DNA from: an uncultured archaeon
GTDB lineage: Archaea > Asgardarchaeota > Lokiarchaeia > Sigyniarchaeales > SOKP01
Assembly (NCBI GenBank): GCA_964486045.1
Contig: CAZALK010000021.1
Span: 8,684 to 72,683, forward strand
DNA length: 64,000 nt
Direction: 5' to 3'
The notes beneath the pieces were generated by a model. It did not search any database. It was not told the origin of the DNA and saw only the letters and a program-made list of their open reading frames with translations. The number at the start of each line of letters is the position of its first letter. Within the stretch, counting starts at the first letter, position 1. Shown in pieces: positions 14,863 to 63,168 of the stretch. The translations under genes and the position numbers were made by a program.

Positions 14863-15008
14863 TTTTTATTGTTAGTATAATTTAATCATAAATAATTGAG
14901 ATTATCTTTAAAAACTTTACAACCGATAATTTTTTTAGATAGATGTGATAGATAGAAGTATCTTTTATTCAAAATCTTTACAATTTATGCTAATTGTGTG
15001 AACTAATT

Positions 15009-22201: not shown

Positions 22202-22609
22202 TTAGTAACTTCTTCTCCCTTTTTTGTTAATGCCACCACTACGGCCTTTTCCACCTCCAGGACCGCCTTTACGACTGCCTCCACCACGACCGCCTCCACC
22301 ACGACCGCCTCCACCACGACCGCCTCCACCACGACCGCCTCCACCACGACCGCCGTAACTACCACGTGAGCTTAGTTGTGGGGGGGCTTTTTTAGTTACA
22401 ACAACATTATTTGCTTGAGGACCTTTTTCACCTTGTACTACATCAAATTCGACTTCGTCCCCTTCATTTAATGTTTTATACTCATCCTCATCTCCAGCTA
22501 ATGCTGAAAAATGTACAAAAATATCATTTCCATCCTCCGAATTTATAAATCCAAAGCCTTTACCGCTATTAAACCACTTTACTGTTCCTGTTACCAATTT
22601 TTTTACCAA
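22202..22609 (-). CDS. Cold-shock domain protein with a long RGG/Gly-Arg repeat tail
   Basis: 135-aa ORF with a TTG start. It has [15 protein letters not shown] (RNP1) and IFVHFSAL (RNP2). The tail is [43 protein letters not shown]. Confidence 0.85.
22276..22350. repeat. Five tandem copies of a 15-bp unit (cgcctccaccacgac) encoding the GGRGG repeats
   Basis: Read directly: tgcctccaccacgac followed by 4 perfect cgcctccaccacgac units. The alternative-frame ORF 22153..22365 (VVVEA repeats) is an artefact of this repeat. Confidence 0.9.
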
Positions 22610-43895: not shown

Positions 43896-43981
43896 TATCA
43901 ATAACTTTTTTTTATATTTTTAATAGTATTTAAATTAATCTTGAAAAGATTAAGTGTTTCTAAAAAGAAATTTTCATAATT

Positions 43982-44767: not shown

Positions 44768-44844
44768 TTATCACAAAAAGTAAAGATATTTGGGTATATG
44801 TAGAAATTAAGAAATCAAATATTAGGGGAGTTACCTTTGAATTA

Positions 44845-45771
44845 TTGGGGAAGGCTAAAGAATTAGCAGAAAATTCTGTCAATAAAGTATGTATGATTAT
44901 TCTTGGAAGAGATTGTTCAAGGTTCTGTGAAGAACTTTCTTATCATAATATAGATAAAATATATTTATGTGAAAATGAAATATTGGAGGATTACCTAACT
45001 GAAACATATTCTCCTATTCTAATTAACCTAATTAAAAAATATACACCAAATATACTATTATTTCCAGCAACCAAAATTGGGAGAGATTTAGCTCCAAGAG
45101 TTGCAGCATCATTGGAAACAGGCTTAACAGCAGACTGTGTTGACTTGAAAGTTCAAGATGGAAATTTAGTGCAGACTCGTTCTGTTTATGGTGGTAATTA
45201 CTTAGCAGATATAATCTGCCCAGACAGAAGACCTCAAATCACATCAGTAAGACCAAATGTTATGGAAAAATCTGAACCAACTGAGAAGAATCAACCTGAA
45301 ATTATAAATTTTCCATTGGAATTAGATTTAGACCAGCTTAAAACAAGAGTAATTGAAGAAATCAAAACAACAACATTAGATGTAAAACCTATTGATGAAG
45401 CTGATATTATCGTATCTGGGGGTAGGGGTATCGGGAGTAAAGAAAATTTTAGATTAATTGAGGAATTAGCAGAAGTATTAAATGCAGCAGTTGGTGCTAG
45501 CAGAGCATCTGTAGATGCAGGATGGATTTCAAAATCATGTCAAGTGGGACAAAGTGGTACAGTAGTTTGCCCTAACATCTATATAGCATGTGGTATATCA
45601 GGAACAACTCAACATTTAGTAGGTATGAGGAGTAGTAAGAGGATTATTGCCATAAACAAGGACCCCAATGCTCCTATATTTGATGTGTGTGATTATGGTA
45701 TTGTAGGTGACTTCAAAGTTATTGTCCCCCTATTAACTGAAGGTTTTAGAAAAAAATTAGCCAAAGATTAA
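44845..45771 (+). CDS. etfA: Electron transfer flavoprotein, alpha subunit (called start is probably too far downstream)
   Basis: 308-aa ORF from TTG 44845. The FAD-binding block is VSGGRGIGSKENF...AAVGASRASVDAGW...QVGQSGTVVCPNIYIACGISGTTQHLVGM. In-frame sequence upstream (44767..44844: IITKSKDIWVYVEIKKSNIRGVTFELL) matches the usual EtfA N-terminus but contains no ATG, GTG or TTG. Confidence 0.8.
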   Translation: MGKAKELAENSVNKVCMIILGRDCSRFCEELSYHNIDKIYLCENEILEDYLTETYSPILINLIKKYTPNILLFPATKIGRDLAPRVAASLETGLTADCVDLKVQDGNLVQTRSVYGGNYLADIICPDRRPQITSVRPNVMEKSEPTEKNQPEIINFPLELDLDQLKTRVIEEIKTTTLDVKPIDEADIIVSGGRGIGSKENFRLIEELAEVLNAAVGASRASVDAGWISKSCQVGQSGTVVCPNIYIACGISGTTQHLVGMRSSKRIIAINKDPNAPIFDVCDYGIVGDFKVIVPLLTEGFRKKLAKD

Positions 45772-45806
45772 TTCAGATATTACTAAATCTAATTAAATTG
45801 TTTATT

Positions 45807-47030
45807 ATGAATAAAGTTGCTATCATAGGGGTTGGACATACTAAATTTGGCCGAATAGAAGATAAAGGATTGATAGATTTATTATCTGAAGCATCTTTAG
45901 GTGCGTTAGAAGATTCTAACACTAATGATATAGATTTTGATTCTGTTTTTGTGGGATGTATGGGTTCAGATGCATTTAATCAAATTACTGGGGTTGCTAG
46001 TGCTCTCGTAGATAGAATTAATCTAATTCCCGCTGCCGCAGATCAGATTAAAAATGGCCCTGCAAGTGGTGGCTCAGCTGTTAAGGCAGGTTTTCAAGCA
46101 ATTGCATCGGGAATGAGTGATTTAGTATTAGTCGTGGGAGGTGAAAAAATGACCCATATTAAGACACCTGGGTTTATTACTTCATATGTGGCTACTATTA
46201 CCCATCATCAAGCTGAAAGACGTCATGGAGTTTCAATTCCCTCACTAACAGGAATGTTGATGAGAACTTATATTGAAAGGTATAACGCAAAACTTGATTG
46301 GTTTTCAGACATCGTAATAAAAAATCATAAGAATGGTGCTTCAAATCGGTTTGCTCACTTCCAAAGGACTATCGAAGATTTTATGAAAAATAGCATTCAG
46401 AAAGGAAAAGGAAATTGGGAAAATGTTTATGATTTCTTAACTGATGATAAGGTTAATCCAATAATTGCTGATCCCATAAGACTTTTTAATAGCTGTCCTA
46501 TCTCAGATGGAGCTGCCGCGTTAGTACTATGTAATGCTGATATAGCGAAGAAATATTGTGATACTCCTATATTAATTTCTGGTATTGGTCAAGCAACAGA
46601 TACGCATATCCTTTATGAACGCGATGATATTTTAACGTTAAAAGCTTTGAGAATTTGTTCCGATAAAGCATATCGGATGGCAAAAAAGTCAGCTCAAGAC
46701 ATAGATGTATGTGAAGTACATGATGCGTTTACCATATTAGAAGTCATCCAAAGTGAAGATTTGGGATTTTTCAAAAAGGGTGAAGGTGCTAAGGCTGCGC
46801 ATGAAGGTTTAACGGAAATTGGTGGTAAAATTCCAATCAATCCATCCGGAGGCTTGAAAGCTCGAGGACATCCTTTAGGTGCTACTGGTGTAGCTCAAGT
46901 TGTTGAGTTGGTATGGCAATTGAGAGGAGAAGCGGGTAAGAGACAAGTAGATGGTGCGCAATCAGGAATAACTTGTAATTTCGGAGGATTCGGCAACAAT
47001 ATTATCTCCATACTCGTAGAAAGGCTATAA
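45807..47030 (+). CDS. Thiolase-fold protein (archaeal acetyl-CoA C-acetyltransferase / SCP-x-like thiolase)
   Basis: The ORF runs 45798..47030, with ATG at 45807 (MNKVAIIGVGHTKFG). It has NGPASGGSAV, VGGEKM, CPISDGAAALVL, VCEVHDAFTILE, NPSGGLKARGHPLGATG and CNFGGFG. Its end overlaps the birA end by 6 nt (convergent). Confidence 0.8.
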   Translation: MNKVAIIGVGHTKFGRIEDKGLIDLLSEASLGALEDSNTNDIDFDSVFVGCMGSDAFNQITGVASALVDRINLIPAAADQIKNGPASGGSAVKAGFQAIASGMSDLVLVVGGEKMTHIKTPGFITSYVATITHHQAERRHGVSIPSLTGMLMRTYIERYNAKLDWFSDIVIKNHKNGASNRFAHFQRTIEDFMKNSIQKGKGNWENVYDFLTDDKVNPIIADPIRLFNSCPISDGAAALVLCNADIAKKYCDTPILISGIGQATDTHILYERDDILTLKALRICSDKAYRMAKKSAQDIDVCEVHDAFTILEVIQSEDLGFFKKGEGAKAAHEGLTEIGGKIPINPSGGLKARGHPLGATGVAQVVELVWQLRGEAGKRQVDGAQSGITCNFGGFGNNIISILVERL

Positions 47031-47777
47031 AATTCTTTTTATTCTTGTTAAGTCATCAATCGTTAAATTTAAAGTATTATCACCTTTCCTAAATTGCATT
47101 ACTCCCTCATGATTAATTCCTTTACAAAAATATCTCTTTGAATCATCAAGAATGACTTCCCTTTCATAAATTCTCAAATATTGATTATATTCCTGGATTA
47201 ATTGTTGAGTTTCTTTTTCATTGTGTTCCGTAATTGGTGAAAAGTAGTGCTTTACGCGAGAACGTATCTGTTGAGCAAATTGATCTAACGAAACTTCTTT
47301 TTTTATTATGTCTTTGATGGATATTGTAATCGATTTTAGATTATTTGGCATCGCATTACTTGAGTTATTTAAATTTACTCCCATTCCAATCAAAAGATAA
47401 TTTCTTCGAGGACTTACAATATAATCAATTAGGATTCCTGCAAGTTTTTTATTTTCATACAATAAATCATTTGGCCACTTAATTTGAACTACTAAATTAT
47501 ATTCCTCTTTAATAACTCGTGTTAGCATGATAGCAGTAAAATAATGAAATAGAGCTAATTGTGATTTATTTAAATCTAATGAAATAGAAATTCCAAGAGT
47601 TGCCCAAAATCCCCCCTCCGGGGAAACCCAATCATCTTCTCTCCTTCCACGCCCTTTAGTTTGGATTTTAGCAATTAATAATATTGATGGGTAATAATCA
47701 TTTTTTAGGTATTCAACTACAGCATCTTGGGTAGAGCTTGTTTTATCAATGTGAATAATCTTTATTTTAGAAAGCAT
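47025..47777 (-). CDS. birA: Biotin-[acetyl-CoA-carboxylase] ligase, no N-terminal HTH (group I)
   Basis: 250-aa ORF. It has TSSTQD, the biotin/ATP loop TKGRGRREDDWVSPEGG, and IKWPNDLLYENKKLAGIL. Confidence 0.8.
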   Translation of the reverse strand: MLSKIKIIHIDKTSSTQDAVVEYLKNDYYPSILLIAKIQTKGRGRREDDWVSPEGGFWATLGISISLDLNKSQLALFHYFTAIMLTRVIKEEYNLVVQIKWPNDLLYENKKLAGILIDYIVSPRRNYLLIGMGVNLNNSSNAMPNNLKSITISIKDIIKKEVSLDQFAQQIRSRVKHYFSPITEHNEKETQQLIQEYNQYLRIYEREVILDDSKRYFCKGINHEGVMQFRKGDNTLNLTIDDLTRIKRIL

Positions 47778-48100
47778 TTCAAATCGAATTTATTGTACAA
47801 GTTATTAATTAATTAGCTAGTTATTATTGAAAAGTGTATCCATTTAAATATCTTTAACTTTCAAATCTCAACATCATAAACATTTTTGCTTAAACTTGAA
47901 ACTCCCTTATTCTACAATATTTTTTTTTATTTTTTTCCAAACGATTATCTCGGTCATTGAACTTAATAAAAATCCGAGGAAATTTTAATAAAGCCATGTA
48001 AAATTTAATACTTTTGATAGTGTGTTATCATGTAAAAATTTTATAAATTAATCTTTGATAAAAATAATAATTTGTTTAATTAAATAGTTGAAGAATTAAG

Positions 48101-49672
48101 ATGATTCTAAAAGATAACGAGTCAAAAGACAACTTCAAAATTACTGAAAAACTGCAAGAGTTGAGAGAAGAATCCCGAATTGGAGGCGGAAAAGAACGTA
48201 TTGATACTCAACATAAGAAAGGTAAGCTAACAGCTCGAGAAAGGATTGAATTGTTAGTAGACTATGAGTCATTTATCGAAATTGGCTCGTTGGTTAAGCA
48301 TCGCTCCTACAAATTTGGATTAGAGAATAAAAGATTTCTTGGAGATGGAGTTGTCACTGGTTATGGAACAATAAATGGCCGAAAAGTGTTCATTTATAGC
48401 CAAGATTTTACAGTACTTGGTGGAACTATTGGAAAAGCTCATGCTCAAAAAATATGCAAAATTATGGATTTAGCATTAAAAATGGGATGTCCTGTGATCG
48501 GTCTAATAGATTCGGGAGGTGCTCGGATCCAAGAAGGCGTTGATGCATTAGATGGATTAGGAGATATATTTTATCGAAATGTACAGGCATCAGGAATTAT
48601 TCCTCAAATATCTGTAGTTTTAGGTACTTCTGCTGGAGGAGCTGCCTATAGTCCAGCATTAACCGATTTTCTTATTATGGGTGGAAAAAACGCCTTTATG
48701 TTTATCACAGGACCTCAAGTGGTTAAATCAGTAACGGGAGAAGATGTGTCATTTTTGGGATTAGGAGGCCCTGAAATTCACTCAACAATTTCTGGTGTTT
48801 GTCACAGAGTTGCGGATACTGAAGAAGAAGCACTAGAACTCGTTAGGAAATTATTAACTTACTTGCCATCAAATAATTTAGATGATCCCCCGTCCCCTTT
48901 AGAAAAATTTAATGCAATGGATCCTTATCTATTAAATAAAGTTGTGCCCGAAAGTGAAAATGAACCGTATGATATGGAAACATTAATTAATTTAGTTGTT
49001 GATCAAGAATCATTCTTCGAAATTTTCCCTAATTGGGCTAAAAATATCGTTATTGGGTTTGGAAGGATAGAGAATCAAACAGTGGGTATTATTGCTAACC
49101 AACCGCTATATCTAAGTGGTGCAATTGATTATAATGCATCTGATAAAGCCGCTAGGTTTATTCGATTTTGTGATTCATTCAATATTCCTCTAATAACACT
49201 TGTTGATGTTCCGGGATTTATACCAGGGATAAAACAAGAAAATTCAGGAATTATCAGACACGGCGCCAAATTAATTTATGCTTATTCTGAGGCAACTGTA
49301 GTAAAAATTACGGTAATTATCCGTAAAGCTTATGGAGGAGCATATATTGTAATGAACTCAAAACAGTTAGGTTCAGATATCAATTTAGCTTGGAATTCTG
49401 CTCAAATTGCTGTTATGGGTGCAGAAGGAGCTTGCAAAATTCTTTTTCGAAATCATTTAAAGGAGACAGAAGATCCTGATAAAATGTTAAAAGAATTCAC
49501 AGAAGAATACAGGAAAGAATTTTCTAATCCATATCATGTAGCTGAAAAGGGACAAATAGACAAAGTAATTTTTCCACATGAGACTCGTCTTGAAATCGTT
49601 AAAAGCTTGAAATTTTTTGAAACAAAACGTGATCAGTCTCCTAAGCGAAAACACGGGATTTCTCCTGTTTAA
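48101..49672 (+). CDS. Acyl-CoA carboxylase carboxyltransferase subunit (PccB/AccD-like, fused N- and C-CT halves)
   Basis: 523-aa ORF. It has GGGKERIDTQHKKGKLTARERI, GDGVVTGYGTINGRKVFIYSQDFTVLGGT, DSGGARIQEG, GTSAGGAAYSPALTDF, GRIENQTVGIIANQP, PLITLVDVPGF and RKAYGGAYIVM. Confidence 0.85.
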   Translation: MILKDNESKDNFKITEKLQELREESRIGGGKERIDTQHKKGKLTARERIELLVDYESFIEIGSLVKHRSYKFGLENKRFLGDGVVTGYGTINGRKVFIYSQDFTVLGGTIGKAHAQKICKIMDLALKMGCPVIGLIDSGGARIQEGVDALDGLGDIFYRNVQASGIIPQISVVLGTSAGGAAYSPALTDFLIMGGKNAFMFITGPQVVKSVTGEDVSFLGLGGPEIHSTISGVCHRVADTEEEALELVRKLLTYLPSNNLDDPPSPLEKFNAMDPYLLNKVVPESENEPYDMETLINLVVDQESFFEIFPNWAKNIVIGFGRIENQTVGIIANQPLYLSGAIDYNASDKAARFIRFCDSFNIPLITLVDVPGFIPGIKQENSGIIRHGAKLIYAYSEATVVKITVIIRKAYGGAYIVMNSKQLGSDINLAWNSAQIAVMGAEGACKILFRNHLKETEDPDKMLKEFTEEYRKEFSNPYHVAEKGQIDKVIFPHETRLEIVKSLKFFETKRDQSPKRKHGISPV

Positions 49673-49693
49673 TATTTATAATTGTTGATTTTT

Positions 49694-58600: not shown

Positions 58601-60187
58601 AATGTTACTAAAACAATTAACAAATTGGAATTTCCGATGATAGATAAAATGAATTATCAACCAGATTTTATCATTGGTTCAAACACCCTAAACTCTGAAT
58701 TTGACATTTATTTACACGATCATCAAATTCAGCAAAAACCAGTATTCCCTGGTGTAATGGTTCTGGAAACTTTCGCAGAATTCTATAACAATGTATTTGA
58801 AAAACCCATGGCTTCTATTTCAAAAGTTAACTTCCACACTCCCTTAAAAATTCCATTAAACAAGCCAGTTGAAGTTGAACTGAAGTATAATTATTCTAAC
58901 AATGAAATTACTCTTTTATCGAAGACTTATCCTCTTGTTTTGAAAGGAAAACCCCTAATTAAGGAACACTTCAATGCAGAGCTTGGAAAATCAATAAAAA
59001 AAATGAAATGGAAAAAGGAACCTATTTTAGAACCATTAATCCCTCTACTTGATAAAAACGATATATACGAGATTTTCTTCCATGGAAAAAGTTTCCAAGT
59101 GTTAGATGAAATTATTCAACTAGAAAATGGAAAAATAATAGCAAAAGTTGATATTCCAACAACTTCACTAACCAGAAATAGTGAAGGAGATAAATTTCAA
59201 CTCGAACCATTAGCAATAGAAAGTATTTTTCAAACAGCCGCATTGTTTGATGTTATTGTTAATAATCACATATCTCTTCCCTCTAAAATTTCCACTCTTG
59301 AAATATTATCAAACCAAAAACCGAAATACATAGTTGCTAAATTTTTGAAAAAAGATAAAGAACGTTCATACTATAATTCTGTGATCTTGGATGAAAATCA
59401 CGAGATTATTATGAAAGTTTCAAATCTGGAAATTATCCATTCTCCACTTTCATTTGACATATCAGAAAGTCTATCTAATTATTTAGCTACATTAAAAGAA
59501 TATTATCTTCTTAAAAATGGTAAGAACTCTAACATTTTTCACATCCTTCCTATTGAGAAATTAAAACTTTTATATCAAACAGATCCAAAATTTTTAGAAA
59601 CTCATCTAACTGAATATGAAATTGATGCTTCCAAAAGATTTAGAAATGAAAAACGAAAACTCGAATATTTTTCAGGAATTATTACTGCGAAAGAATGTTA
59701 TATAAGACAATCACCTGAAATTCTCTCTTATCACGATATTGAAATTCAAAAGAATGAAAAAGGAAAACCTTTCTATTATTCAAACAATACTAAGCAGAAA
59801 ATCCCAATTAATCTTTCAATTAGCCATTCACATGAATTTTCTGTAGCAATCATGAGTAAAAACCAAGTTGGGATCGATTTAGAGATAATAGAATCACGAT
59901 CTCCTTCTTTCTATAAAGAAGTGTTTACTGAATCTGAGATAGAGTTAATTTCGGAAAATAATAAATTAGGTACTCTATATTTTACTGCTAAAGAAGCCTT
60001 TTCAAAAGCGATTGGGGAAGGTTTTAATGTTAATTTTCGTGATGTTGAATTAAAGTATAATGAAAAGCAGAAGAAATTTTCTTTGATCGCTAAAAAAGAT
60101 CAACCAGAATTCAATAAAAAATTCAAAAAATTAATATTAAAATCTGAATTCACTGAAAAATATGTGATATCTTATTGCGAGATTTAA
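49694..60187 (+). CDS. Type I iterative FAS/PKS-like megasynthase (PUFA-synthase-like): NMO-like barrel, ER, KS, AT, KS, ACP x3, psiKR/KR, DH, PPTase
   Basis: A single uninterrupted frame runs 49682..60187 (3501 codons from TTG). ATG at 49694 is the likelier start, 21 nt after the carboxyltransferase stop. Domain motifs are listed in the separate domain features. Residue numbers follow the 49682 ORF-track translation. Confidence 0.9.
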   Translation: MKKRKDVLDILGKGRIPIWGYSPKGITDPALSIEICRMGGVGLVDLEGLNINQCQTLLNKCFTLMSSDHLWGIRVSTNEILNYLEFQDVVPIIICAFSPDSKDIAKLKKTSNLLLSEVSYLEEAYKNADWAELFLVKGSEAGGMVGVKNSFILIQEFFKAGLSFVIQGGFGVFNISSAFIGGALGVVVESQLFLLPECPLSPEFKDYIKTIEETDFYIFKETSRFNYRLIGKLANKSIRSLKEIEKKEFSKLNEEFHAELGNLKEKLKTKINELANNQKIYSDLEPKHSWLPSDQGITFAKFILDSFNNLENFLQSIPKIIQKQLESVKERWPFAKNSDFAKNFNIIYPVIQGPMANVSDHIAFATKIAENGALPIFALGGLLENEASALLSEAKSSKLSETSYGSGIIGLEAVKARREEHLKLISKFGPKITLVAAGSVDLGLRVKNLGNTVLIHTPALSMFKDALKKHLDFMILEGSECGGHFGILSSFILWECILEYLYISKQERKEKVNLIFAGGIINDISTAMLAGMIGEHLDIINPGIQMGTAYLLSEEIVNTQALSPVYQALLLNNSCTTVIGTSVNTRARVIPSEFAFNTIKNENLRKTQGISISERKEMFEKDNLGALRIATKAEIWNENHIEGSGTTQFIPTSNKRQLTDGAFMTGESIALQKTLRSISQIHYDVIEGGRKSFNIKVSQLFNEILEYKPKKSEKKMGSGVSFGKKVAIIGLGGIFPDAENIPKFWENIKNKKYSIIEVPNERWDPEIFYNKDHSVPEKTYTKIGGFIKNFEFKSIKYRIPPKMAERMDLVQKLAVKTAEEALIDAGYPTNAKQRLPIATIVGNSSGGDAQRLSNKRIIFSEIKYRINEASSQKILNQDQKNNLLNFLEEKIVKQIPTINEDSMPGELSNIIAGRVANVFNLTGKSMSIDAACASSLAAIDTAINGLLVKDYDAVLVGGSDSSMDPQTFIKFCKIGALSENGSYPFDARADGFIMGEGAGFMVLRLLEDAIRDKNKIYAIISGYGGSSDGKGKGITAPNPDGQRLAIERALNDSNTKPSEIQYLECHGTSTIVGDATELNVLKQFFSGRDMNQKLAIGSIKSQIGHLKSASGIAGIIKSVLALHHKIIPPSVNYVTPNPSIDWETSPYYVNTEPISWISPEDNIRRAGVSSFGFGGTNYHVILEEFIPQLYDATPFASQKDPIPDNLLDSIPSTIAVSPELCFLFSGQGSQYVGMAKELYQKYQIIKNTLDNANEICKNFGGFDLLEIIFGSPEITEEESSNKLRQTQYTQPAIYSVEMALYNLFYSKGIIPGLVGGHSLGEFAALVTAGVLNFEDGLKVVITRGKAMAELPPGVECTMAAIFASSEIVEKTLKELSVENVSISNYNSTSQIVIAGEVSEIESAVSTFSEKGIRAIKLNVSNAFHSKYVAHAEEKLKSFLKSIKFNTPRIPVFSNVTGKIYPEDPEKIKSILLKQITSPVRWVDETLNIYHHGGRKFLEIGPKKALFFFTKDILKKHKNIEVNYTLSPKAPEGEHIQKILEQFKTLAPKKSVEPVKTALQSQQVSKSSLTPTSTRVPTTQFIPRSNDEINKIRQLPFFNEFLEEQKELLSSVLIQGFQSYMKKYQSSFKQPSTLDGPKFNADPIMITGVGLGLPGKNRNVFDDQNIDDILHGINLIEPVGKEFETQLLQQNIIRLEKSPNGNATFQPVDELSKVIHLAGQLGKFNPTDDYQFDAKMLNALDITYQLAICAGYDALKDAGIPLVRTRIKTSTGKILPGDWVLPEDIQDETGIVFASAFPGLDNFTDELSSKSDGDASERDNNFNRAFLFRVLSMGHSQFAQLIKAKGPNTAVNAACASTPQAIGVAEDWIRTGRCKRVIVISADNVTSKNLFQWIGAGFLTSGAATTQSRWEDAVLPFGKGRNGIIIGAGAGAFVIEQESEAKARGVKPIVEILGTSFVNSAYHGTRLDKAHISRKLDEFVTEMVERHGITKNEMANEGMFVSHETYSPARGGSAESELDALEQTFGKNAYDIVIVNTKGYTGHAMGAGIEEAVAIKSMERGIIPPVANLKRIDPNFKKFKFAKGSNERKKYALRLAAGFGSQLALVLFRLVSYNNRLGKIEYSRWLQKIGGGMKHLFDDGRVLKMNTELIKPTQTSLSPNSKETTQRSDIIETIDISNQIKQIISSKTGYDPGDIEEDYDLEEDLGIDTVKQAEIFGEIREKWNIEIDDSFNLADYRTINAIVQMLTEFLDSDTSSSTVVFSPDNRQLEEKLIQIISEKTGYDTEDIDVNFDLEEDLGIDTVKQAEIFGEMRNFLKIPEETEINLAGLKSIKDIIQQIQENLNIQSIKTDTDVPQKDITTEMGETSNTKQVSNVVKKIIADKTGYEISDIEDSYDLEEDLGIDTVKQAEIFGELREFYNLEESIEINLTEIRTPSEITNFIMQFVSKTLKLEEEKLEIPINMGKSLEKLEEDVEEEIYVSQVIPSRIFNLQSSKKIPKFKNFEALILNINSSLSNYQNLREDFQKIGLKTQIFDITSEENYIKDLKNTKSESLLDGDFKVIILVVPDNTQYSLNDSLSFFDSLFIIFQSLNISIIEKIIILSPESYFGWEQGANALSSSIGAFIKSINREFQIPIKHIYSVNPEQINQEILIWDNIEEVAYKDNIRYTLLRKKIEEFPKQGNYSITKDDVLLATGGAQGITFACIDELTNSIKPHLILLGLAPYEDSLHEYLHQSPEKLEEKKQEITILMKSKQEKVTPVMIKREWKNFQDKLDTLRNVESLRNKGLEVQYYAVDVTNDEKMQKTFQQIHKDVEKPITIVVHGAGIEESKSFLKKNLKMAHLVVNVKVGGFLNVLKHLELQNMKLFMAFSSVAGRYGNQGQIDYAFANAYLSRLAWDYSQRKIPFLAIDWTAWAGIGMATQGSTLQILTQAGVVPVPPQIGVNIFSKLLLNNFKGEYIVGGKLGIFEEKLNVTKTINKLEFPMIDKMNYQPDFIIGSNTLNSEFDIYLHDHQIQQKPVFPGVMVLETFAEFYNNVFEKPMASISKVNFHTPLKIPLNKPVEVELKYNYSNNEITLLSKTYPLVLKGKPLIKEHFNAELGKSIKKMKWKKEPILEPLIPLLDKNDIYEIFFHGKSFQVLDEIIQLENGKIIAKVDIPTTSLTRNSEGDKFQLEPLAIESIFQTAALFDVIVNNHISLPSKISTLEILSNQKPKYIVAKFLKKDKERSYYNSVILDENHEIIMKVSNLEIIHSPLSFDISESLSNYLATLKEYYLLKNGKNSNIFHILPIEKLKLLYQTDPKFLETHLTEYEIDASKRFRNEKRKLEYFSGIITAKECYIRQSPEILSYHDIEIQKNEKGKPFYYSNNTKQKIPINLSISHSHEFSVAIMSKNQVGIDLEIIESRSPSFYKEVFTESEIELISENNKLGTLYFTAKEAFSKAIGEGFNVNFRDVELKYNEKQKKFSLIAKKDQPEFNKKFKKLILKSEFTEKYVISYCEI
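49733..50326 (+). other. Megasynthase domain 1: short NMO/FabK-like TIM-barrel lacking the conserved His
   Basis: About aa 18-215. It has ICRMGGVGLVDL, LWGIRV, LVKGSEAGGMVG (Met148, ATG 50123..50125, sits where the family has GGH), VIQGGFG, and GALGVVVESQLFLLPEC. Confidence 0.55.
50726..51751 (+). other. Megasynthase domain 2: FMN-type enoyl reductase (NMO / FabK / PfaD-like)
   Basis: About aa 349-690. It has NIIYPVIQGPMANVSDHIAFATKIAENGALPIFALGG, ILEGSECGGHFG (His488, CAT 51143..51145), IFAGGIINDISTAMLAGM and IQMGTAYLLSEE. Confidence 0.75.
51863..53245 (+). other. Megasynthase domain 3: ketosynthase KS1 (Cys-His-His)
   Basis: It has KKVAIIGLGGIFPDA, IDAACASSLAAI (Cys936, TGT 52487..52489), YLECHGTSTIVGD (His1070, 52889..52891), SQIGHLKSASG (His1109, 53006..53008) and SSFGFGGTNYHVILEE. 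Confidence 0.9.
53351..54215 (+). other. Megasynthase domain 4: acyltransferase (malonyl-CoA:ACP transacylase type)
   Basis: It has LCFLFSGQGSQYVGM, QTQYTQPAIY, GHSLGEFAAL (Ser1322, AGT 53645..53647), NVSNAFHSKYV and PVRWVD. Confidence 0.9.
54614..56020 (+). other. Megasynthase domain 5: second ketosynthase KS2, divergent but with an intact Cys-His-His
   Basis: It has DPIMITGVGLGLPG, GPNTAVNAACASTPQAIG (Cys1858, TGT 55253..55255), FVSHETYSPARGGSAESELDAL (His aligned to the CHGT of KS1), NTKGYTGHAMGAG and LAAGFGSQLALVLF. Confidence 0.8.
56216..56440 (+). other. Megasynthase domain 6a: ACP repeat 1 (PfaA-type) with Thr at the expected Ser position
   Basis: The sequence is IISSKTGYDPGDIEEDYDLEEDLGIDTVKQAEIFGEIRE. 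Thr2212 is encoded by ACC at 56315..56317. Confidence 0.8.
56492..56716 (+). other. Megasynthase domain 6b: ACP repeat 2 with Thr at the expected Ser position
   Basis: The sequence is IISEKTGYDTEDIDVNFDLEEDLGIDTVKQAEIFGEMRN. Thr2304 is encoded by ACT at 56591..56593. Confidence 0.8.
56801..57036 (+). other. Megasynthase domain 6c: ACP repeat 3 with Thr at the expected Ser position
   Basis: The sequence is IIADKTGYEISDIEDSYDLEEDLGIDTVKQAEIFGELRE. Thr2407 is encoded by ACA at 56900..56902. Confidence 0.8.
57361..58590 (+). other. Megasynthase domain 7: ketoreductase (structural psiKR sub-domain + catalytic KR)
   Basis: The psiKR part is FKVIILVVPDN...IIILSPESYFGWEQGANALSSSIGAFIKSINREF. The catalytic part starts at about 57752 with VLLATGGAQGITFACI, VVHGAGI and FSSVAGRYGNQGQIDYAFANAYL (Tyr2887, TAT 58340..58342). 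Confidence 0.8.
58636..59460 (+). other. Megasynthase domain 8: PKS-type (double hot-dog) dehydratase
   Basis: YLHDHQIQQKPVFPGVMVLE follows the HxxxGxxxxP-type motif with Gln in place of Gly (His3014, CAT 58721..58723). A later LEPLAIESIFQTAALF corresponds to the DxxxQ-like motif, here ExxxQ. Confidence 0.7.
59607..60184 (+). other. Megasynthase domain 9: C-terminal 4'-phosphopantetheinyl transferase
   Basis: It has RFRNEKRKLEYFSGIITAKECYIR, KNEKGKPFY, LSISHSHEFSVAIMS, VGIDLEIIESR, FTESEIELI and LYFTAKEAFSKAIGEGF. The last two match the PPTase motifs GIDxE and W/FxxKEAxxKxxG. Confidence 0.8.
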
Positions 60188-60220
60188 TTTTTGATTGTCG
60201 TTATAAACTCGGTGTAAATC

Positions 60221-61000
60221 ATGGAAAAAATCATAATAGAAATTAAGGTACGCTCTGAAATTTTACACAGTATTCTTTTTTTACCTGAATCCAAGAATGG
60301 TAAACTCTTCCCTCTCGTTATCCGTGTTAATGGGTTGCCAGGAAAATCACCCGAAGAAGATGAGCAAAGATTTGCACAATATTTTATAGAAAATAACATT
60401 GCTTATTTCACTTACGATCATCAAGGAGTAAGAACGAGTACTGGAGTTTTCACCTATTATGATGCTCAAGCAAATATTGAAGAAGTAATAAATATTTTAG
60501 TCCATAATCCAAAAATTAATCCATTAAAAATTGGATTGCTGGGTGAAAGTTTTGGTGGGGCAATGATTCTTTGCCATGCCGTTAGAGATAAACGAGTAAA
60601 ATGTCTTGCTGTTCGCTCGCCAGTTTTTGACACCGAAATTATCCCTAAAAATCCGTTGTTTAAGTTTTTCATAAGAGCGTTGACTCGAAATAAGGAAATG
60701 AGGTTTGCAGATATTGATTTTAAGAAAGAATATTCTAAACAAACTAAGCAATTTAATCCTGACAAATTAGCTAATTTTTTAACAAAACCATTTTATCTAA
60801 TCGCAGGAAATAAAGATGCGTTATTCCCAGAAAAAGGATTTCATGAGCTTTTTAACAAAGTTAAATCTAAGGAGAAAAAAATTGAGATACTTGATGGGGC
60901 GAACCATAATTTTACTGATAAAAATCATTTTCAAACAATGTGTGAGAAGGTCGTTGAATTTTTTAATATTCATCTAGTATCAAATAATAAAAATCTATAA
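60221..61000 (+). CDS. Alpha/beta-hydrolase (candidate thioesterase/releasing enzyme for the megasynthase)
   Basis: 259-aa ORF starting 33 nt after the megasynthase stop. The nucleophile elbow is LLGESFGGAM, the acid candidate is AGNKDALFP, and the His candidate is DGANHNF. A thioesterase role is inferred from position only. Confidence 0.6.
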   Translation: MEKIIIEIKVRSEILHSILFLPESKNGKLFPLVIRVNGLPGKSPEEDEQRFAQYFIENNIAYFTYDHQGVRTSTGVFTYYDAQANIEEVINILVHNPKINPLKIGLLGESFGGAMILCHAVRDKRVKCLAVRSPVFDTEIIPKNPLFKFFIRALTRNKEMRFADIDFKKEYSKQTKQFNPDKLANFLTKPFYLIAGNKDALFPEKGFHELFNKVKSKEKKIEILDGANHNFTDKNHFQTMCEKVVEFFNIHLVSNNKNL

Positions 61001-61013
61001 AGAGAGAATATTC

Positions 61014-61490
61014 ATGCAAAGACAAGTCAAATTTCGCGGAAGAGACTATATCATCACTCCGCTAGACGATGGAAAATTAAAGGTTGATGATCATATTTAT
61101 TCCCCAATAGTGATTCAAGAGACTGCAAAATTATATCGAGTGACATTTGAGGATTGCCAGTTTAATTTGGAACTTATTGATGGAAAATTGTTTTTAGAGG
61201 GTGAAGAAATTGATATTGAAATAAAACCCTATTTAAAAGCAGTAGATTCTGGTTCTGCAAGCCAAGTAGCGAAAATGGTTATAGTAAGGGCTCCTATTCC
61301 CGGGAAAATTTTACAAATTTTAACACGGGAGAACGAACGTGTTGAAAAAGAACAGCTAATTCTTATATTAGAAGCGATGAAAATGAAAAATAGGATATTA
61401 TCTCCTATAAAGGGTACTATTACACAAATTTTTGTTGATGTTGATGAGAATGTTGGACAAGATCAACAGTTAATTAAAATTGAAAATTAG
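61014..61490 (+). CDS. Biotin carboxyl carrier protein (biotinyl domain) with an unrecognised N-terminal ~80 aa
   Basis: 158-aa ORF starting 13 nt after the hydrolase stop. The C-terminal biotinyl domain is APIPGKILQILTRENERVEKEQLILILEAMKMKNRILSPIKGTITQIFV. The biotinyl-Lys123 of the AMKM motif is AAA at 61380..61382. Confidence 0.85.
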   Translation: MQRQVKFRGRDYIITPLDDGKLKVDDHIYSPIVIQETAKLYRVTFEDCQFNLELIDGKLFLEGEEIDIEIKPYLKAVDSGSASQVAKMVIVRAPIPGKILQILTRENERVEKEQLILILEAMKMKNRILSPIKGTITQIFVDVDENVGQDQQLIKIEN

Positions 61491-61500
61491 ATTTTGTTAC

Positions 61501-62979
61501 TTATCGGACCTGCTCAATTTTAGCATAATCCCGCCATTTAGTAGATGTTTTTGAGATAGTTTGAATTGGCTGAATTGAATAATTAAGCTCTTTGACGAAT
61601 TGAAAAACCGCTGCTAACTTTTTTCTTTCAAGATCTTTCAAATCCTTTATAATGTTTGTTCGAACTAAGAAGTCGGTGGATAGATCCCCTTTTTTAAATT
61701 CTTTTGTTTCTACTATTACTTTATGCAAGTCTAAATTGGTGTTAATCCCTGAAATGGCTAATTCTTTTAAAGCACTAATGGAAAGATTTATTGCTCTCTT
61801 CCTTGTTTTCCCCCAAACTATTAATTTCCCAATTAATGAATCAAAATTGTGAGGAATTACATAATTTGGATATATATGACTATCAAATCGGACTTTTGGG
61901 CCACCTGGAACGATTAAGCGAGTAATTTTCCCATTCTGAGGCATGAACGAATTATTAGGATCTTCAGCATTTATTCGAAATTCAATCGCGTGACCGTTAA
62001 ATGAAATTTCCTCTTGTGTGAAGCTTAAAGGTTTGTTTGAAGCGATACTTAATTGTTCTTCAACTAAATCTATACCTGTTACCATTTCAGTAACTACATG
62101 TTCCACTTGGATCCTTGGGTTTACTTCATTAAAATAGAGCTTGTTATCCTTCCAAAGAAATTCAGCTGTACCTACATTTGAATATCCTAATTCACGGGCT
62201 AATAAGCATGTTTTTTCCCCTAAATCATTAACGATTTCTCTCGGTAAAAATGAAGGGGCTTCCTCAATAAGTTTTTGATGCGATCGTTGGATCGTACATT
62301 CCCGATCCCCTAAATGGACGATATTCCCAAAATTATCTCCCATAAATTGAATTTCTACATGGCGGGGAGCATTAACTGATTTTTCAATTAATACTTCTTC
62401 ACGACCAAAATATTTTAAGGCAATTAATTGGCATCCCTCCATAGCAATCTTCAAATCATCCTCAGCTTCCACAATTTCCATTCCTCGACCTCCACCTCCG
62501 AAAGCTGCCTTAATAATTATAGGATAACCAATTTTATTCGCAATTGTTATTGCTTCTTTTAATGTTTTTACAAATCCATCTGAACCAGGTAGTACTGGTA
62601 ACCCAACTTTTTCACCAAGTTTTTTGGCCTGAACCTTATTACCTAAGAAATCAATAATATCCGGGCTAGGTCCTATAAAGGTTTTTCCCAATTTTATTAT
62701 TTCTCTAGCAAATTCTGCATTTTCACTTAAAAACCCATATCCGGGATGGACAGCATCAGCCTTAGAACGCTCAATTATGTCAAGTAGTTTTGGAATGTTT
62801 AAATAAGTACACTCAACTGACTCCTCTCCAATGCAATATGCTTCATCTGCCATTTTTACATGTAAAGAATCTTTGTCTTCTTCACAAAATACAGCAATGG
62901 ACCTTAAGTTTTTTATCCGGCAAGCACGTATCACTCGAACGGCGATTTCTCCTCGATTAGCAATTAATACTGAATGCAT
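61501..62979 (-). CDS. accC: Biotin carboxylase (ATP-grasp) subunit of acyl-CoA carboxylase
   Basis: The ORF runs 61501..62991, with ATG at 62979 (MHSVLIANRGEIAVRVIRA). It has HPGYGFLSENAEFA, IIKAAFGGGGRGM, HVEIQFMGD, ERECTIQRSHQKLIEEAP, GTAEFL, NPRIQVEHVVTE and EFRINAEDP. It has a C-terminal extension of about 45 aa. Its stop lies 10 nt from the BCCP stop (convergent). Confidence 0.9.
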   Translation of the reverse strand: MHSVLIANRGEIAVRVIRACRIKNLRSIAVFCEEDKDSLHVKMADEAYCIGEESVECTYLNIPKLLDIIERSKADAVHPGYGFLSENAEFAREIIKLGKTFIGPSPDIIDFLGNKVQAKKLGEKVGLPVLPGSDGFVKTLKEAITIANKIGYPIIIKAAFGGGGRGMEIVEAEDDLKIAMEGCQLIALKYFGREEVLIEKSVNAPRHVEIQFMGDNFGNIVHLGDRECTIQRSHQKLIEEAPSFLPREIVNDLGEKTCLLARELGYSNVGTAEFLWKDNKLYFNEVNPRIQVEHVVTEMVTGIDLVEEQLSIASNKPLSFTQEEISFNGHAIEFRINAEDPNNSFMPQNGKITRLIVPGGPKVRFDSHIYPNYVIPHNFDSLIGKLIVWGKTRKRAINLSISALKELAISGINTNLDLHKVIVETKEFKKGDLSTDFLVRTNIIKDLKDLERKKLAAVFQFVKELNYSIQPIQTISKTSTKWRDYAKIEQVR

Positions 62980-63168
62980 CACAAAAATCAAAATGAAATT
63001 TAATTAATAACGTTAATTACTTGTTTGATTAAATAATTATGTGTTTTATTAAAAATTGATGATTTTTTTAATATTAGATAAAAATTAAATTAGTTAAAGA
63101 AGCTTCTATTAATTATTAATCCACTTCTAAACAAGATTTTGAAGATAGTAAATTAGAAATAAGTATAA

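What the first reader, a model, noticed from the sequence alone, without database searches (positions are those of the whole stretch)
47025..62991. Self-contained malonyl-CoA supply, megasynthase and hydrolase island in an archaeal-looking genome
The gene order read from the sequence is birA (-), carboxyltransferase (+), 3.5k-aa megasynthase (+), alpha/beta-hydrolase (+), BCCP (+), then biotin carboxylase (-). Gaps inside the plus-strand block are only 21, 33 and 13 nt, which fits one transcript. The accC stop is 10 nt from the BCCP stop.

Together these genes cover four steps:
- Making malonyl-CoA: BC, BCCP with an AMKM biotinyl-Lys, CT and a biotin ligase.
- Running a full reducing elongation cycle on a carrier protein: KS, AT, ACP, KR, DH and ER.
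- Activating the carrier: the fused PPTase.
- Plausibly releasing the product: the hydrolase.

It is established that archaea generally lack ACP, holo-ACP synthase and FAS systems and build isoprenoid ether lipids. Here an ACP-dependent system sits on the same contig as an archaeal-type LeuRS and Asgard-like signature genes. By eye it shares their AT-rich, Lys/Ile/Asn-rich composition.

I infer that this organism may make fatty-acyl or polyketide chains de novo. That would bear on the lipid-divide and eukaryogenesis debates. I do not know of a description of this exact island.
Basis: partly seen in the sequence, partly recalled or inferred. Interest (0 to 1): 0.92.

Follow-up and report, generated by a model that had tools for sequence, protein, structure and literature searches.

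The report
Asgard archaeal fatty-acyl megasynthase gene cassette
A Loki-lineage Asgard archaeon carries an intact gene cassette for making malonyl-CoA and building reduced acyl chains on a carrier protein, which is rare in archaea, but it belongs to a product-unknown lipid-synthase family already seen in bacteria.

Summary
All six genes, the 21, 33, 13 and 10 nt gaps and every claimed domain are present and intact.

The contig is archaeal and not chimeric:
- Island and flanks have the same composition (tetranucleotide r=0.90, codon-usage r=0.95).
- The CT, megasynthase, hydrolase, BCCP and BC cassette recurs in 18 Asgard species genomes. Two of these are closed Heimdallarchaeum chromosomes.
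- One Loki relative has it beside the proteasome/exosome operon.

The 3497-aa enzyme reads ER'-ER-KS-AT-KS2-ACPx3-KR-DH-PPTase. By architecture it matches the "Type R" Pfa-like secondary lipid synthases (Shulse and Allen 2011). These occur in many bacterial phyla and in Thermoplasmatota, often linked to ACC genes, and their product is unknown. It is not a PUFA synthase and shows no special affinity to eukaryotic FAS.

The most likely function is iterative, fully reducing synthesis of a saturated or hydroxylated acyl chain from malonyl-CoA. A conserved Asgard-specific α/β-hydrolase probably releases the product.

This holds family-wide across more than 110 proteins. E. coli ACP S36T cannot be modified, so a Thr-linked arm is implied but unproven.

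I rate it a new member of a known kind, of moderately high interest.

The parts
47025..47777 (-). Biotin-protein ligase (BirA catalytic type, no repressor domain), 250 aa. It is divergent from the CT gene.
   Evidence: PF03099 E=1.4e-18. TIGR00121 scores 134.6 bits against a cutoff of 83.1. The same birA(-)/CT(+) arrangement occurs in Loki relative L026.
47778..48100 (.). AT-rich divergent intergenic region of 323 nt between birA and CT. It is the presumed promoter region for both directions.
   Evidence: Read from the sequence. Promoter function is inferred and was not tested.
48101..49672 (+). Carboxyltransferase subunit of a biotin-dependent acyl-CoA carboxylase (single-chain PccB/AccD5/MmdA type), 523 aa.
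   Evidence: PF01039 scores 616 bits. TIGR01117 scores 726 bits, below its equivalog cutoff. It is 63-64% identical to the CT directly upstream of the megasynthase in Heimdall and Loki loci, 53% to bacterial L024 and 47% to Thermoplasmatales L027.
49694..60187 (+). All-in-one iterative type I synthase, 3497 aa, with order ER'-ER-KS1-AT-KS2-ACP1-ACP2-ACP3-KR-DH-PPTase.
   Evidence: The best family model is TIGR02813 PfaA, 938 bits against a cutoff of 1010. The exact protein is on a 136-kb public contig.
49694..50683 (+). ER-like domain 1, a divergent NMO/FabK-like barrel (residues 1-330).
   Evidence: Pfam NMO matches two stretches. The FabK model gives E=1e-4. The AF2 model shows a beta/alpha pattern but has low confidence.
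50702..51589 (+). ER domain 2, a FabK-type FMN enoyl reductase (residues 337-632).
   Evidence: TIGR03151 FabK E=2.6e-16. The top Foldseek hits are FabK structures, E=4e-10. It is not an orthologue of the PfaD-like ER of bacterial cluster L024.
51863..53248 (+). KS1 (residues 724-1185), with Cys in DAACASS, His in CHGTST and His in GHLKSASG.
   Evidence: PF00109 and PF02801. Motifs located. The best PDB matches are PKS KS-AT didomains.
53354..54268 (+). Acyltransferase (residues 1221-1525), with GHSLG and an xAFH (NAFHS) motif typical of malonyl-specific ATs.
   Evidence: PF00698 scores 163 bits. TIGR00128 FabD scores 251 bits. Motifs located. The specificity rule comes from established PKS AT knowledge.
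54494..56038 (+). KS2 (residues 1601-2115), FabF-like. This is the domain called 'CLF' in Type R, but it has a complete Cys-His-His-Lys set.
   Evidence: TIGR03150 FabF scores 155 bits. The catalytic residues are invariant in 112/112 family members for Cys and the first His, and in 111/112 (one gap) for the second His and Lys.
56201..57028 (+). Three tandem ACP domains. The attachment-site residues are Thr2208, Thr2300 and Thr2403, with codons ACC at 56315, ACT at 56591 and ACA at 56900.
   Evidence: PF00550. The PfaA ACP region gives E=1.9e-43. The Thr aligns on the phosphopantetheine Ser of solved ACPs. No DNA-level tandem repeat was found.
57191..58432 (+). Ketoreductase with its structural subdomain (residues 2500-2913), with TGGAQGIT and S...Y...N motifs.
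   Evidence: PF08659 E=4.5e-29. The PfaA KR region gives E=2.1e-43. Motifs located.
58676..59431 (+). PKS-type double-hotdog dehydratase (residues 2995-3246), with His in DHQIQ..PVFPG and an ESxxQ motif. No FabA-type isomerase is present.
   Evidence: PF21089 and PF14765. These columns are invariant in alignment A1.
59504..60184 (+). Two-half (Sfp/HetI-like) 4'-phosphopantetheinyl transferase fused at the C-terminus, with GIDLE and TAKEAFSKA motifs.
   Evidence: PF01648. TIGR00556 scores 57 bits against a cutoff of 45, and HetI gives E=3e-13. The first half aligns to AcpS structures.
60221..61000 (+). α/β-hydrolase of 259 aa (GESFG nucleophile elbow, Ser110), the presumed product-releasing thioesterase or acyltransferase.
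   Evidence: Hydrolase_4, Peptidase_S9, DLH and BAAT_C hits. It is conserved at this position at 42-69% identity, with GESFG, in Loki and Heimdall loci. It is absent from the bacterial and Thermoplasmatales clusters examined. The nearest PDB entries are esterases and lipases.
61014..61490 (+). Biotin carboxyl carrier protein of 158 aa, with AMKM (biotinyl-Lys123).
   Evidence: PF00364. Motif located. Orthologues with AMKM occur in L007, L012 and L019.
61501..62991 (-). Biotin carboxylase. The public gene call is 61501-62979 (492 aa). It is convergent with BCCP.
   Evidence: Three BC domains. NF006367 scores 592 bits against a cutoff of 597. It is 56-73% identical to the BC at the same position in Asgard loci.

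Best explanation
This is a vertically maintained Asgard-archaeal version of a Pfa-like 'Type R' secondary lipid synthase cluster, with its own acetyl-CoA carboxylase.

Proposed mechanism:
1. BirA biotinylates BCCP at the AMKM lysine.
2. BC and CT convert acetyl-CoA to malonyl-CoA.
3. The C-terminal Sfp-like PPTase domain converts the three tandem ACPs to their holo form. Because the ACPs have Thr at the attachment position, this is presumably an O-phosphopantetheinyl-threonine.
4. The FabD-like AT loads malonyl units.
5. Two catalytically complete ketosynthases extend the chain iteratively.
6. KR, the PKS-type DH and the FabK-type ER reduce each β-carbon.
7. The conserved downstream α/β-hydrolase off-loads the product.

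Because there is no FabA-type dehydratase/isomerase, the product is most likely a saturated chain. If reduction is sometimes skipped, it would be hydroxy- or trans-enoyl.

Shown here: gene content, intact motifs, family membership by architecture, archaeal residence and conservation. Inferred: activity, Thr modification, malonyl-CoA as the ACC product, chain type and the hydrolase's role.

Family:
- The order KS-MAT-'CLF'-ACPn-KR plus PPTase, with ACC linkage, matches the Type R description.
- Unfused bacterial clusters have the same parts and ACC genes.
- All-in-one relatives occur in a Bradymonadaceae/Lujinxingiaceae bacterium and a Thermoplasmatales archaeon, both with the domain order confirmed, and by length and motifs in Bdellovibrionota.

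Archaeal residence:
- 18 of 18 related loci in GTDB species genomes are Asgard, including closed chromosomes CP084167 and CP084166.
- The same five-gene order is found in those loci.
- L026 places birA-CT-synthase beside the proteasome/SBDS/exosome/L37ae/Pcc1 genes.
- The window's LeuRS is archaeal type, at 972 bits.
- Composition is uniform.

Co-evolution of the cassette: CT, BC, BCCP and hydrolase are each closer between Loki and Heimdall than to the non-Asgard cluster-linked copies.

KS2 neighbour-joining tree: Loki 99, Heimdall 90 and Loki+Heimdall 76 bootstrap.
Against: - No expression, protein or lipid data exist.
- The ACPs lack the canonical Ser. E. coli ACP S36T cannot be phosphopantetheinylated (PMC3340395), so carrier activation needs an unprecedented Thr modification.
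- No Type R product has been determined. I found no follow-up.
- The CT family model (mmdA/PccB type) does not distinguish acetyl- from propionyl-CoA.
- The hydrolase is a generic esterase-like fold.
- The tree is neighbour-joining only, and support for all Asgard sequences together is weak (23%).
- The genome scan used a motif derived from Asgard sequences, so its all-Asgard result is partly by design.
Confidence: 0.8

Rival explanations
1. The synthase makes a specialised polyketide-like secondary metabolite, such as a signalling or defensive lipid, wax or glycolipid precursor. On this reading it does not make a bulk fatty acid, and it says little about membrane composition.
For: - The family was defined as 'secondary lipid' synthases with uncharacterised products.
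- Distribution across bacteria and archaea is patchy, which is typical of accessory clusters.
- One bacterial relative sits next to WS/DGAT and AdhE-like genes, suggesting wax-type products.
- BGC surveys file Asgard PKS genes as natural-product clusters.
Against: - A full KR-DH-ER set with tandem ACPs and a dedicated ACC is fatty-acid-like.
- No tailoring genes (methyltransferases, cyclases, glycosyltransferases) occur in the conserved Asgard cassette.
- The distinction from the main explanation concerns the fate of the product, not the chemistry.
Confidence: 0.3
2. The island is bacterial contamination or an assembly chimera joined to archaeal sequence.
For: - The contig is from a metagenome assembly.
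- The family is mostly bacterial.
Against: - Composition is uniform across the junctions.
- The megasynthase was read on two contigs of 50-200 kb with mostly the same neighbouring genes. Whether they come from independent assemblies is not shown.
- An orthologous cassette occurs in two closed Heimdallarchaeum chromosomes and 16 other Asgard genomes.
- L026 links it physically to core archaeal informational genes.
- The nearest bacterial homologues are only about 50% identical.
Confidence: 0.01
3. The carrier domains are dead because Thr cannot be modified. On this reading the megasynthase is inactive, or it works on CoA- or pantetheine-bound substrates without a tethered arm.
For: - S36T abolishes modification of E. 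coli ACP.
- I found no paper describing Thr phosphopantetheinylation.
Against: - The Thr and its surrounding DLG[IV]DTVKQ[AV]E motif are conserved in essentially every ACP of more than 110 family proteins across domains.
- The three window sites use synonymous codons ACC, ACT and ACA, which indicates selection for Thr.
- A PPTase is always fused or adjacent.
- All catalytic motifs of the other domains are intact.
Confidence: 0.05
4. The BC/BCCP/CT/BirA genes serve central metabolism, for example propionyl-CoA carboxylation or methylmalonyl-CoA decarboxylation. On this reading they are only coincidentally next to the synthase.
For: - The CT's best model is the mmdA/PccB subfamily.
- Archaeal acyl-CoA carboxylases are known from autotrophic pathways (own knowledge; acetyl-CoA carboxylase saci_0260-0262 is mentioned).
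Against: - CT sits immediately upstream of the synthase in Loki, Heimdall and Thermoplasmatales.
- ACC genes sit inside or beside unfused bacterial clusters and in Koribacter.
- The AT motif is malonyl-type.
Confidence: 0.1

Closest known systems
Type R secondary lipid synthase (pfaA homologue KS-MAT-CLF-ACP3-6-KR plus pfaE), Shulse and Allen 2011, PMC3098273
   Same: - It has the same core domain order, tandem ACPs and a dedicated PPTase.
- ACC genes are associated with it.
- The product is uncharacterised.
- Hits from the same phyla (Acidobacteria/Solibacter, Elusimicrobia, Chloroflexi) share the KS2 and the Thr-type ACP motif.
   Different: - Here the ER didomain and the PPTase are fused to the synthase.
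- A complete ACC plus BirA and an α/β-hydrolase are in the cassette.
- The host is an Asgard archaeon.
- The 'CLF' is shown to keep Cys-His-His.
- The Thr attachment residue is not mentioned in that paper.
Canonical PUFA synthase PfaABCDE (Shewanella, Moritella, thraustochytrids)
   Same: - It has a PfaA-like KS-AT-ACPn-KR-DH core. TIGR02813 is the best model at 938 bits.
- It has an FMN TIM-barrel ER of the NMO superfamily.
- It has an Sfp-type PPTase.
   Different: - There is no PfaC-type KS-CLF with FabA-like DH/isomerase domains and no PfaB.
- The score is below the PfaA cutoff of 1010.
- The ER is closer to FabK than to PfaD.
- The ACP motif is DTVKQAE, not DSIKRVEIL.
- Polyunsaturated products are therefore not expected.
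Fungal and CMN-bacterial type I FAS
   Same: - It is a large multidomain synthase with an FMN-dependent TIM-barrel ER and a C-terminal PPTase domain (own knowledge).
- It has a full reducing cycle.
   Different: - The domain order is entirely different, and there is no MPT/AT pair.
- By sequence the KS-AT is closest to PKS and Pfa enzymes. The best PKS scores 480 bits and human FAS 198 bits.
Three-subunit biotin-dependent acyl-CoA carboxylase of archaea and actinobacteria (AccC, AccB, PccB type)
   Same: It has separate BC, a small BCCP with AMKM, and a single-chain ~520-aa CT of the PF01039 family.
   Different: - Here it is embedded in a synthase cassette with its own BirA.
- Substrate preference is untested.
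ACP-independent archaeal fatty acid synthesis (ketothiolase/DUF35-based complex), bioRxiv 10.1101/2024.07.05.601840
   Same: Both give archaea a route to fatty acyl chains. That paper notes abundant KT/DUF35 pairs in Asgard genomes.
   Different: - That route uses CoA thioesters, non-decarboxylative thiolase condensation and no ACP.
- The cassette here is malonyl-dependent and carrier-protein-dependent. That paper says archaea lack such systems.

Membership tests
Type R Pfa-like secondary lipid synthase | pfaA homologue with the order KS-MAT-second KS-like ('CLF')-tandem ACPs-KR | tested here: met
   KS 724-1185, AT 1221-1525, KS2 1601-2115, three ACPs 2170-2445, KR 2500-2913.
Type R Pfa-like secondary lipid synthase | Dedicated PPTase encoded with the synthase | tested here: met
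   An ACPS/Sfp-like domain is fused at residues ~3290-3497.
Type R Pfa-like secondary lipid synthase | KS groups phylogenetically with the reference Type R sequences (Koribacter, Solibacter, Roseiflexus, Elusimicrobium) | tested here: inconclusive
Family hits labelled Solibacter, Acidobacteria, Elusimicrobiaceae and Chloroflexi share the architecture and ACP motif.
Type R Pfa-like secondary lipid synthase | Product is a fatty acyl chain | not testable with these tools
   The product is unknown even for the bacterial members.
Canonical PUFA synthase (PfaABCDE) | PfaA reaches the TIGR02813 trusted score | tested here: not met
   938.4 bits against a cutoff of 1010.1.
Canonical PUFA synthase (PfaABCDE) | PfaC-type KS-CLF with two FabA-like dehydratase/isomerase domains | tested here: not met
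   Only PKS-type PS-DH was found. No FabA-like domain occurs in the protein or the cassette.
Canonical PUFA synthase (PfaABCDE) | ACP motif LGIDSIKRVEIL with Ser | tested here: not met
   All three ACPs read LGIDTVKQAEIFG.
Biotin-dependent acetyl/acyl-CoA carboxylase | BC, BCCP with a biotinyl-Lys motif, and CT all present | tested here: met
   (AMKM at 121). BC scores 592 bits against a subfamily cutoff of 597, just below.
Biotin-dependent acetyl/acyl-CoA carboxylase | Acetyl-CoA is the substrate and malonyl-CoA the product | not testable with these tools
   It is inferred only from synteny and from the malonyl-type AT motif NAFH.
Sfp-type phosphopantetheinyl transferase | Two pseudo-symmetric halves with the (V/I)G(I/V)D and (F/W)(S/T)xKE(A/S)xxK motifs | tested here: met
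   GIDLE at 3393 and TAKEAFSKA at 3431. The first half aligns to AcpS. HetI gives E=3e-13.
Acyl carrier protein (PP-binding) | Conserved Ser at the N-terminus of helix II as the phosphopantetheine attachment site | tested here: not met
   Thr2208, Thr2300 and Thr2403 align on the Ser of PigH, ACP and AcpM. The fold and sequence family are otherwise met (PF00550 E=6e-18).
Asgard archaeal genome | Contig carries archaeal informational genes, and its closest relatives are Asgard | tested here: met
   LeuRS leuS_arch scores 972 bits. Homologues at 65-87% identity are labelled Promethearchaeota, and one comes from the LCGC14 marine sediment metagenome. A Ras-family GTPase and LRR proteins are present.

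The most novel reading that the evidence does not exclude
The common ancestor of the Loki and Heimdall lineages already had a complete, malonyl- and carrier-protein-dependent fatty acid synthase. Its products enter the cell's own membrane or storage lipids. If so, some Asgard archaea make bacterial/eukaryote-type acyl chains de novo.

A second, independent novelty concerns the whole family. It would use an O-phosphopantetheinyl-threonine arm, a modification I could not find described. I put the probability of that at about 0.6 on its own.
Probability: 0.2. Interest if true: 0.9.

Novelty: new member of a known kind. Interest (0 to 1): 0.62.

Why it matters
Archaea are generally held to lack ACP, holo-ACP synthase and type I/II FAS. 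A 2024 study of archaeal fatty acid synthesis restates this.

Here a complete ACP-type synthase with its own malonyl-CoA supply is conserved as a unit in two deep Asgard lineages, including closed genomes. That gives the 'lipid divide' question a concrete, clonable target. Expressing about 15 kb of DNA should show whether these archaea can make acyl chains, and which ones.

The importance is tempered. The system belongs to an accessory, bacteria-rich family of unknown product. It is unrelated in architecture to eukaryotic FAS, so it does not by itself explain the eukaryotic membrane.

The family-wide Thr at the carrier attachment site is a separate biochemical puzzle that can be tested cheaply by mass spectrometry.

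Tried and rejected
- **Full-length search:** a homologue search with the whole 3501-aa protein timed out. I used domain blocks instead.
- **Myxobacterial lead:** the ~1390-aa 'KS-AT' hits (P0019, Stigmatella) proved to be KS-KS-AT proteins of a different multi-gene PKS cluster. I dropped them.
- **ER orthology:** I tested whether the N-terminal ER is an orthologue of the PfaD-like ER of bacterial cluster L024. It is not; only weak local matches were found.
- **Hydrolase orthology:** I tested whether the hydrolase matches the one in L024. It does not, at 18% identity and E=0.056.
- **Upstream genes:** I considered the ACAD-ETFβ-ETFα-thiolase genes (42705-47030) as part of the cassette, because bacterial L025 has ETF/ACAD next to its synthase. 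Loki relative L026 has unrelated genes there, so I left them out.
- **Null results:** no DNA tandem repeats in the ACP region and no tRNAs in the window.
- **Structure model:** the AF2 model of the ER didomain had low confidence (pLDDT 53). I used only its top fold matches.
- **Literature:** searches for Asgard plus PUFA synthase, Heimdallarchaeota plus ACP, Type R follow-ups and Thr phosphopantetheinylation found nothing relevant.
- **Failed look-up:** a gene-context look-up for the Bradymonadaceae relative found no record.

Full report
**Observation**

- birA-like gene, 47025-47777 (-)
- carboxyltransferase, 48101-49672 (+)
- one uninterrupted giant ORF ending at 60187 (+)
- α/β-hydrolase, 60221-61000 (+)
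- BCCP, 61014-61490 (+)
- biotin carboxylase, 61501-62991 (-)

The spacings of 21, 33 and 13 nt and the 10-nt stop-to-stop distance are correct. The public gene call starts the giant gene at ATG 49694 (3497 aa) and the BC gene at 62979. Pfam and NCBIfam confirm every assignment. BCCP carries AMKM and the hydrolase carries a GESFG nucleophile elbow.

**Anatomy of the megasynthase**

Domain scans of the whole protein and of seven segments give this order:
- ER-like barrel (1-330)
- FabK-type ER (337-632)
- KS1 (724-1185)
- malonyl-type AT (1221-1525, with GHSLG and NAFH)
- a second FabF-like KS (1601-2115)
- three ACPs (2170-2445)
- KR (2500-2913)
- PKS-type DH (2995-3246)
- a two-half Sfp/HetI-like PPTase (about 3290-3497)

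Supporting points:
- Both KS domains keep the Cys-His-His set. In KS2, Cys and the first His are invariant in 112 of 112 family members; the second His and Lys are present in 111 of 112, with one gap. KS2 is therefore a real ketosynthase, not a Cys-less chain-length factor.
- An AlphaFold model of the first 700 residues was of low confidence (pLDDT 53). Its best structural matches were still FabK enoyl-ACP reductases at E=4e-10, followed by nitronate monooxygenases, trans-AT PKS ER domains and PfaD.
- The best family model for the whole protein is PfaA (TIGR02813), at 938 bits against a cutoff of 1010.
- There is no FabA-type dehydratase/isomerase.

**Is it really archaeal?**

Yes, on several lines of evidence.
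- **Composition.** GC is flat across the window. Island against the rest gives tetranucleotide r=0.90, RSCU r=0.95 and GC3 0.224 against 0.229. Bacterial relatives correlate at only 0.2-0.5.
- **Source contig.** The exact protein lies on a 136-kb contig from sample SAMN11268109. It was read on two contigs of 50-200 kb with mostly the same neighbours. The window's LeuRS is on the same contig and on four further contigs, including a short one from the Logan assembly of SRR8799001.
- **Archaeal marker.** The window's LeuRS is the archaeal type, with leuS_arch at 972 bits and leuS_bact at 131 bits.
- **Close homologues.** Fragments 65-87% identical to the DH-PPTase end come from 'Promethearchaeota' MAGs and from the LCGC14 marine sediment metagenome. 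In NCBI taxonomy this phylum contains the class Promethearchaeia, within the kingdom Promethearchaeati; equating it with the Loki lineage is my own reading.
- **Genome scan.** A scan of one genome per GTDB species returned 18 loci, all Asgard. Five are Loki-lineage and thirteen Heimdall-lineage, including the closed chromosomes of Ca. Heimdallarchaeum endolithica and Ca. H. aukensis. The search motif came from Asgard sequences, so exclusivity is partly by design. The presence in closed genomes is not affected by that.
- **Conserved order.** The order CT, synthase (3350-3519 aa), ~255-aa hydrolase, BCCP, BC(-) is conserved in those loci.
- **Physical linkage.** In Loki relative L026, birA(-)-CT-synthase lies next to proteasome α, SBDS, exosome subunits, L37ae and Pcc1.
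- **Co-evolution.** Every cassette protein is closer between Loki and Heimdall than to the cluster-linked copies in a bacterium or a Thermoplasmatales archaeon. CT is 63-64% against 47-53%. BC is 56-58% against 39-45%. The hydrolase is 42-47%, and BCCP is 36-40%.
- **Phylogeny.** A neighbour-joining tree of KS2 gives Loki 99, Heimdall 90 and Loki+Heimdall 76 bootstrap.

Contamination and chimerism are effectively excluded. A single old acquisition or ancestral presence, followed by vertical descent, is the simplest reading.

**What family is it?**

KS-AT searches find bacterial relatives at about 47-52% identity. The family-specific KS2-ACP block finds 820 proteins. They come from:
- Asgard groups: Loki, Thor, Hod and Heimdall
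- Thermoplasmatota, including Poseidoniaceae
- many bacterial phyla: Acidobacteriota, Myxococcota, Chloroflexota, Actinomycetota, Desulfobacterota, Spirochaetota, Calditrichota and others

Two unfused bacterial clusters show the same parts list:
- L024 has BioY, CT, BC, BCCP, KS-AT-KS, ACPx4, KR-DH, PPTase and a PfaD-like ER.
- L025 has ETF/ACAD, KS-AT-KS, ACP-KR-DH, a multidomain ACC and PPTase.

This matches the 'Type R' secondary lipid synthase of Shulse and Allen 2011. That type is a pfaA homologue, KS-MAT-CLF-ACP(3-6)-KR, followed by a PPTase gene. It occurs in Acidobacteria, Elusimicrobia and Chloroflexi, has an ACC gene inside the Koribacter cluster, and its product is uncharacterised. 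I could not compare directly with their reference sequences.

An exhaustive search with the ER didomain found 528 representative clusters at E<=1e-30. Almost all match at the N-terminus of 2000-4041-aa proteins. Fused forms with the same ACP type occur in uncultured Desulfobacter (3896 aa) and Desulfobacteraceae. Forms that also have a C-terminal PPTase motif occur in Bdellovibrionota (3072 aa). Pfam confirms the full domain order, including the PPTase, in a Bradymonadaceae/Lujinxingiaceae bacterium (3626 aa) and a Thermoplasmatales archaeon (3247 aa). In the Thermoplasmatales genome, CT again sits directly upstream and a BC-BCCP fusion is divergent.

The all-in-one architecture and the ACC linkage are therefore not Asgard inventions. 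Among the clusters examined, only the Asgard ones have the downstream hydrolase; a divergent birA was seen in the window and in L026.

**The unexpected feature**

All three ACPs read DLGIDTVKQAEIFGE. Alignment to solved ACPs puts the Thr on the phosphopantetheine-bearing Ser.
- The three Thr codons are ACC, ACT and ACA, and the region has no DNA-level repeat. This is neither an error nor a recent copy.
- Nearly all ACPs of the Asgard orthologues have Thr. Heimdallarchaeum has Ser, Thr, Ser.
- So do those of 113 family proteins, of the unfused bacterial clusters and of the large bacterial fused forms.
- A sister class of ER-didomain synthases keeps the canonical GIDSIKRVEIL.
- E. coli ACP S36T cannot be modified and is non-functional (PMC3340395).
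- I found no paper describing Thr phosphopantetheinylation.

A PPTase is always fused or adjacent, and every other catalytic motif is intact. The most economical reading is that the family's own PPTase makes a Thr-linked arm. That is inference and needs mass spectrometry.

**Mechanism**

The mechanism is shown as far as genes and motifs go, and inferred beyond that.
1. BirA, BC, BCCP and CT supply malonyl-CoA.
2. The PPTase primes the ACPs.
3. The AT loads malonyl units.
4. KS1 and KS2 elongate the chain. They may divide the work by chain length, as the two KS of PUFA synthases do.
5. KR, DH and the FabK-type ER fully reduce each unit.
6. The hydrolase releases or transfers the chain.

Without a FabA-like isomerase, a saturated or hydroxylated chain is expected, not a PUFA.

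**Comparison and novelty**

It works like a Pfa-type iterative synthase and fits Type R by architecture. It fails the defining tests for a canonical PUFA synthase: no PfaC, a sub-cutoff PfaA score and a different ACP motif. Its KS-AT resembles PKS and Pfa enzymes far more than animal FAS, at 480 against 198 bits.

Prior notice exists. NCBI labels fragments as type I PKS in Asgard MAGs. Chen et al. 2020 reported a PKS cluster with PUFA-like KS in a Heimdallarchaeota MAG. Recent work on archaeal fatty acid synthesis still states that archaea lack FAS I/II and, nearly always, ACP and its synthase. I found no description of the conserved cassette.

I rate it a new member of a known kind. It is of moderately high interest because it makes the question of acyl-chain synthesis in Asgard archaea directly testable.

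**Limits**
- There are no expression or lipid data.
- The tree is neighbour-joining only.
- Taxon labels are those of MAG depositors.
- The distribution within Asgard is known only from one motif-based scan.

Noticed in passing
window 56315-56317, 56591-56593, 56900-56902; also L004-L021, L024 14457-16718, L025 14370-18545: The phosphopantetheine attachment residue of every ACP is Thr (motif DLG[IV]DTVKQ[AV]E). This holds across the bacterial and archaeal family. A sister class of ER-fused synthases has the canonical Ser motif GIDSIKRVEIL. E. coli ACP S36T is unmodifiable, so a Thr-linked arm is implied.
   Followed up: yes
window 42705-47030 (+): Acyl-CoA dehydrogenase, ETF-β, ETF-α and an archaeal-type thiolase lie directly upstream of birA. 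A bacterial relative (L025) also has ETF and ACAD next to its synthase. Loki relative L026 has proteasome/exosome genes and a histidine kinase there instead, so the linkage is not conserved.
   Followed up: partly
L020 1-3615 and 3449-11635 (Ca. Heimdallarchaeum aukensis PM71, CP084166): In this closed genome the orthologous megasynthase is split into two overlapping ORFs (1205 and 2729 aa). This suggests a frameshift, either a pseudogene or a sequencing error.
   Followed up: no
L027 4417-17744 (Thermoplasmatales archaeon SW_10_69_26): A non-Asgard archaeon has a divergent BC-BCCP fusion, a CT and a 3247-aa all-in-one synthase with a fused PPTase and Thr-type ACPs. Poseidoniaceae (MG-II) sequences form a separate clade (bootstrap 100). 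The family has therefore entered archaea more than once.
   Followed up: partly
window 54494-56038: The domain that the Type R description calls a chain-length factor keeps Cys and the first His in all 112 family members examined, and the second His and Lys in 111 of 112 (one gap). The family therefore has two active ketosynthases per chain.
   Followed up: yes
window 32043-33236 (-), 17753-19201 (+), 4131-5822 (+): Three eukaryote-like signature proteins are present. They are a Ras-family GTPase with a ~165-aa N-terminal extension, a leucine-rich-repeat protein and a BBS7/FG-GAP-like β-propeller.
   Followed up: no
window 33433-36555 (-), 36861-41522 (-), also 9217-11115 and 27003-28517: Four PAS-domain histidine kinases are present. 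Two are very large (1040 and 1553 aa) with many tandem PAS domains.
   Followed up: no
window 14994-16997 (+), 41679-42614 (-), 22202-22609 (-): Three further genes stand out. One is an acetoacetate-CoA ligase at 825 bits, above its cutoff. One is a radical-SAM protein with weak YydG-like and viperin-like matches. One is a 135-aa cold-shock-domain protein.
   Followed up: no
P0139, P0194, P0249 (Heimdallarchaeota-labelled fragments): A second Heimdall-labelled KS2 group branches apart from the main Loki+Heimdall clade, near Thermoplasmata sequences. It may be a paralogue or a separate acquisition. Support for all Asgard sequences together is only 23%.
   Followed up: partly
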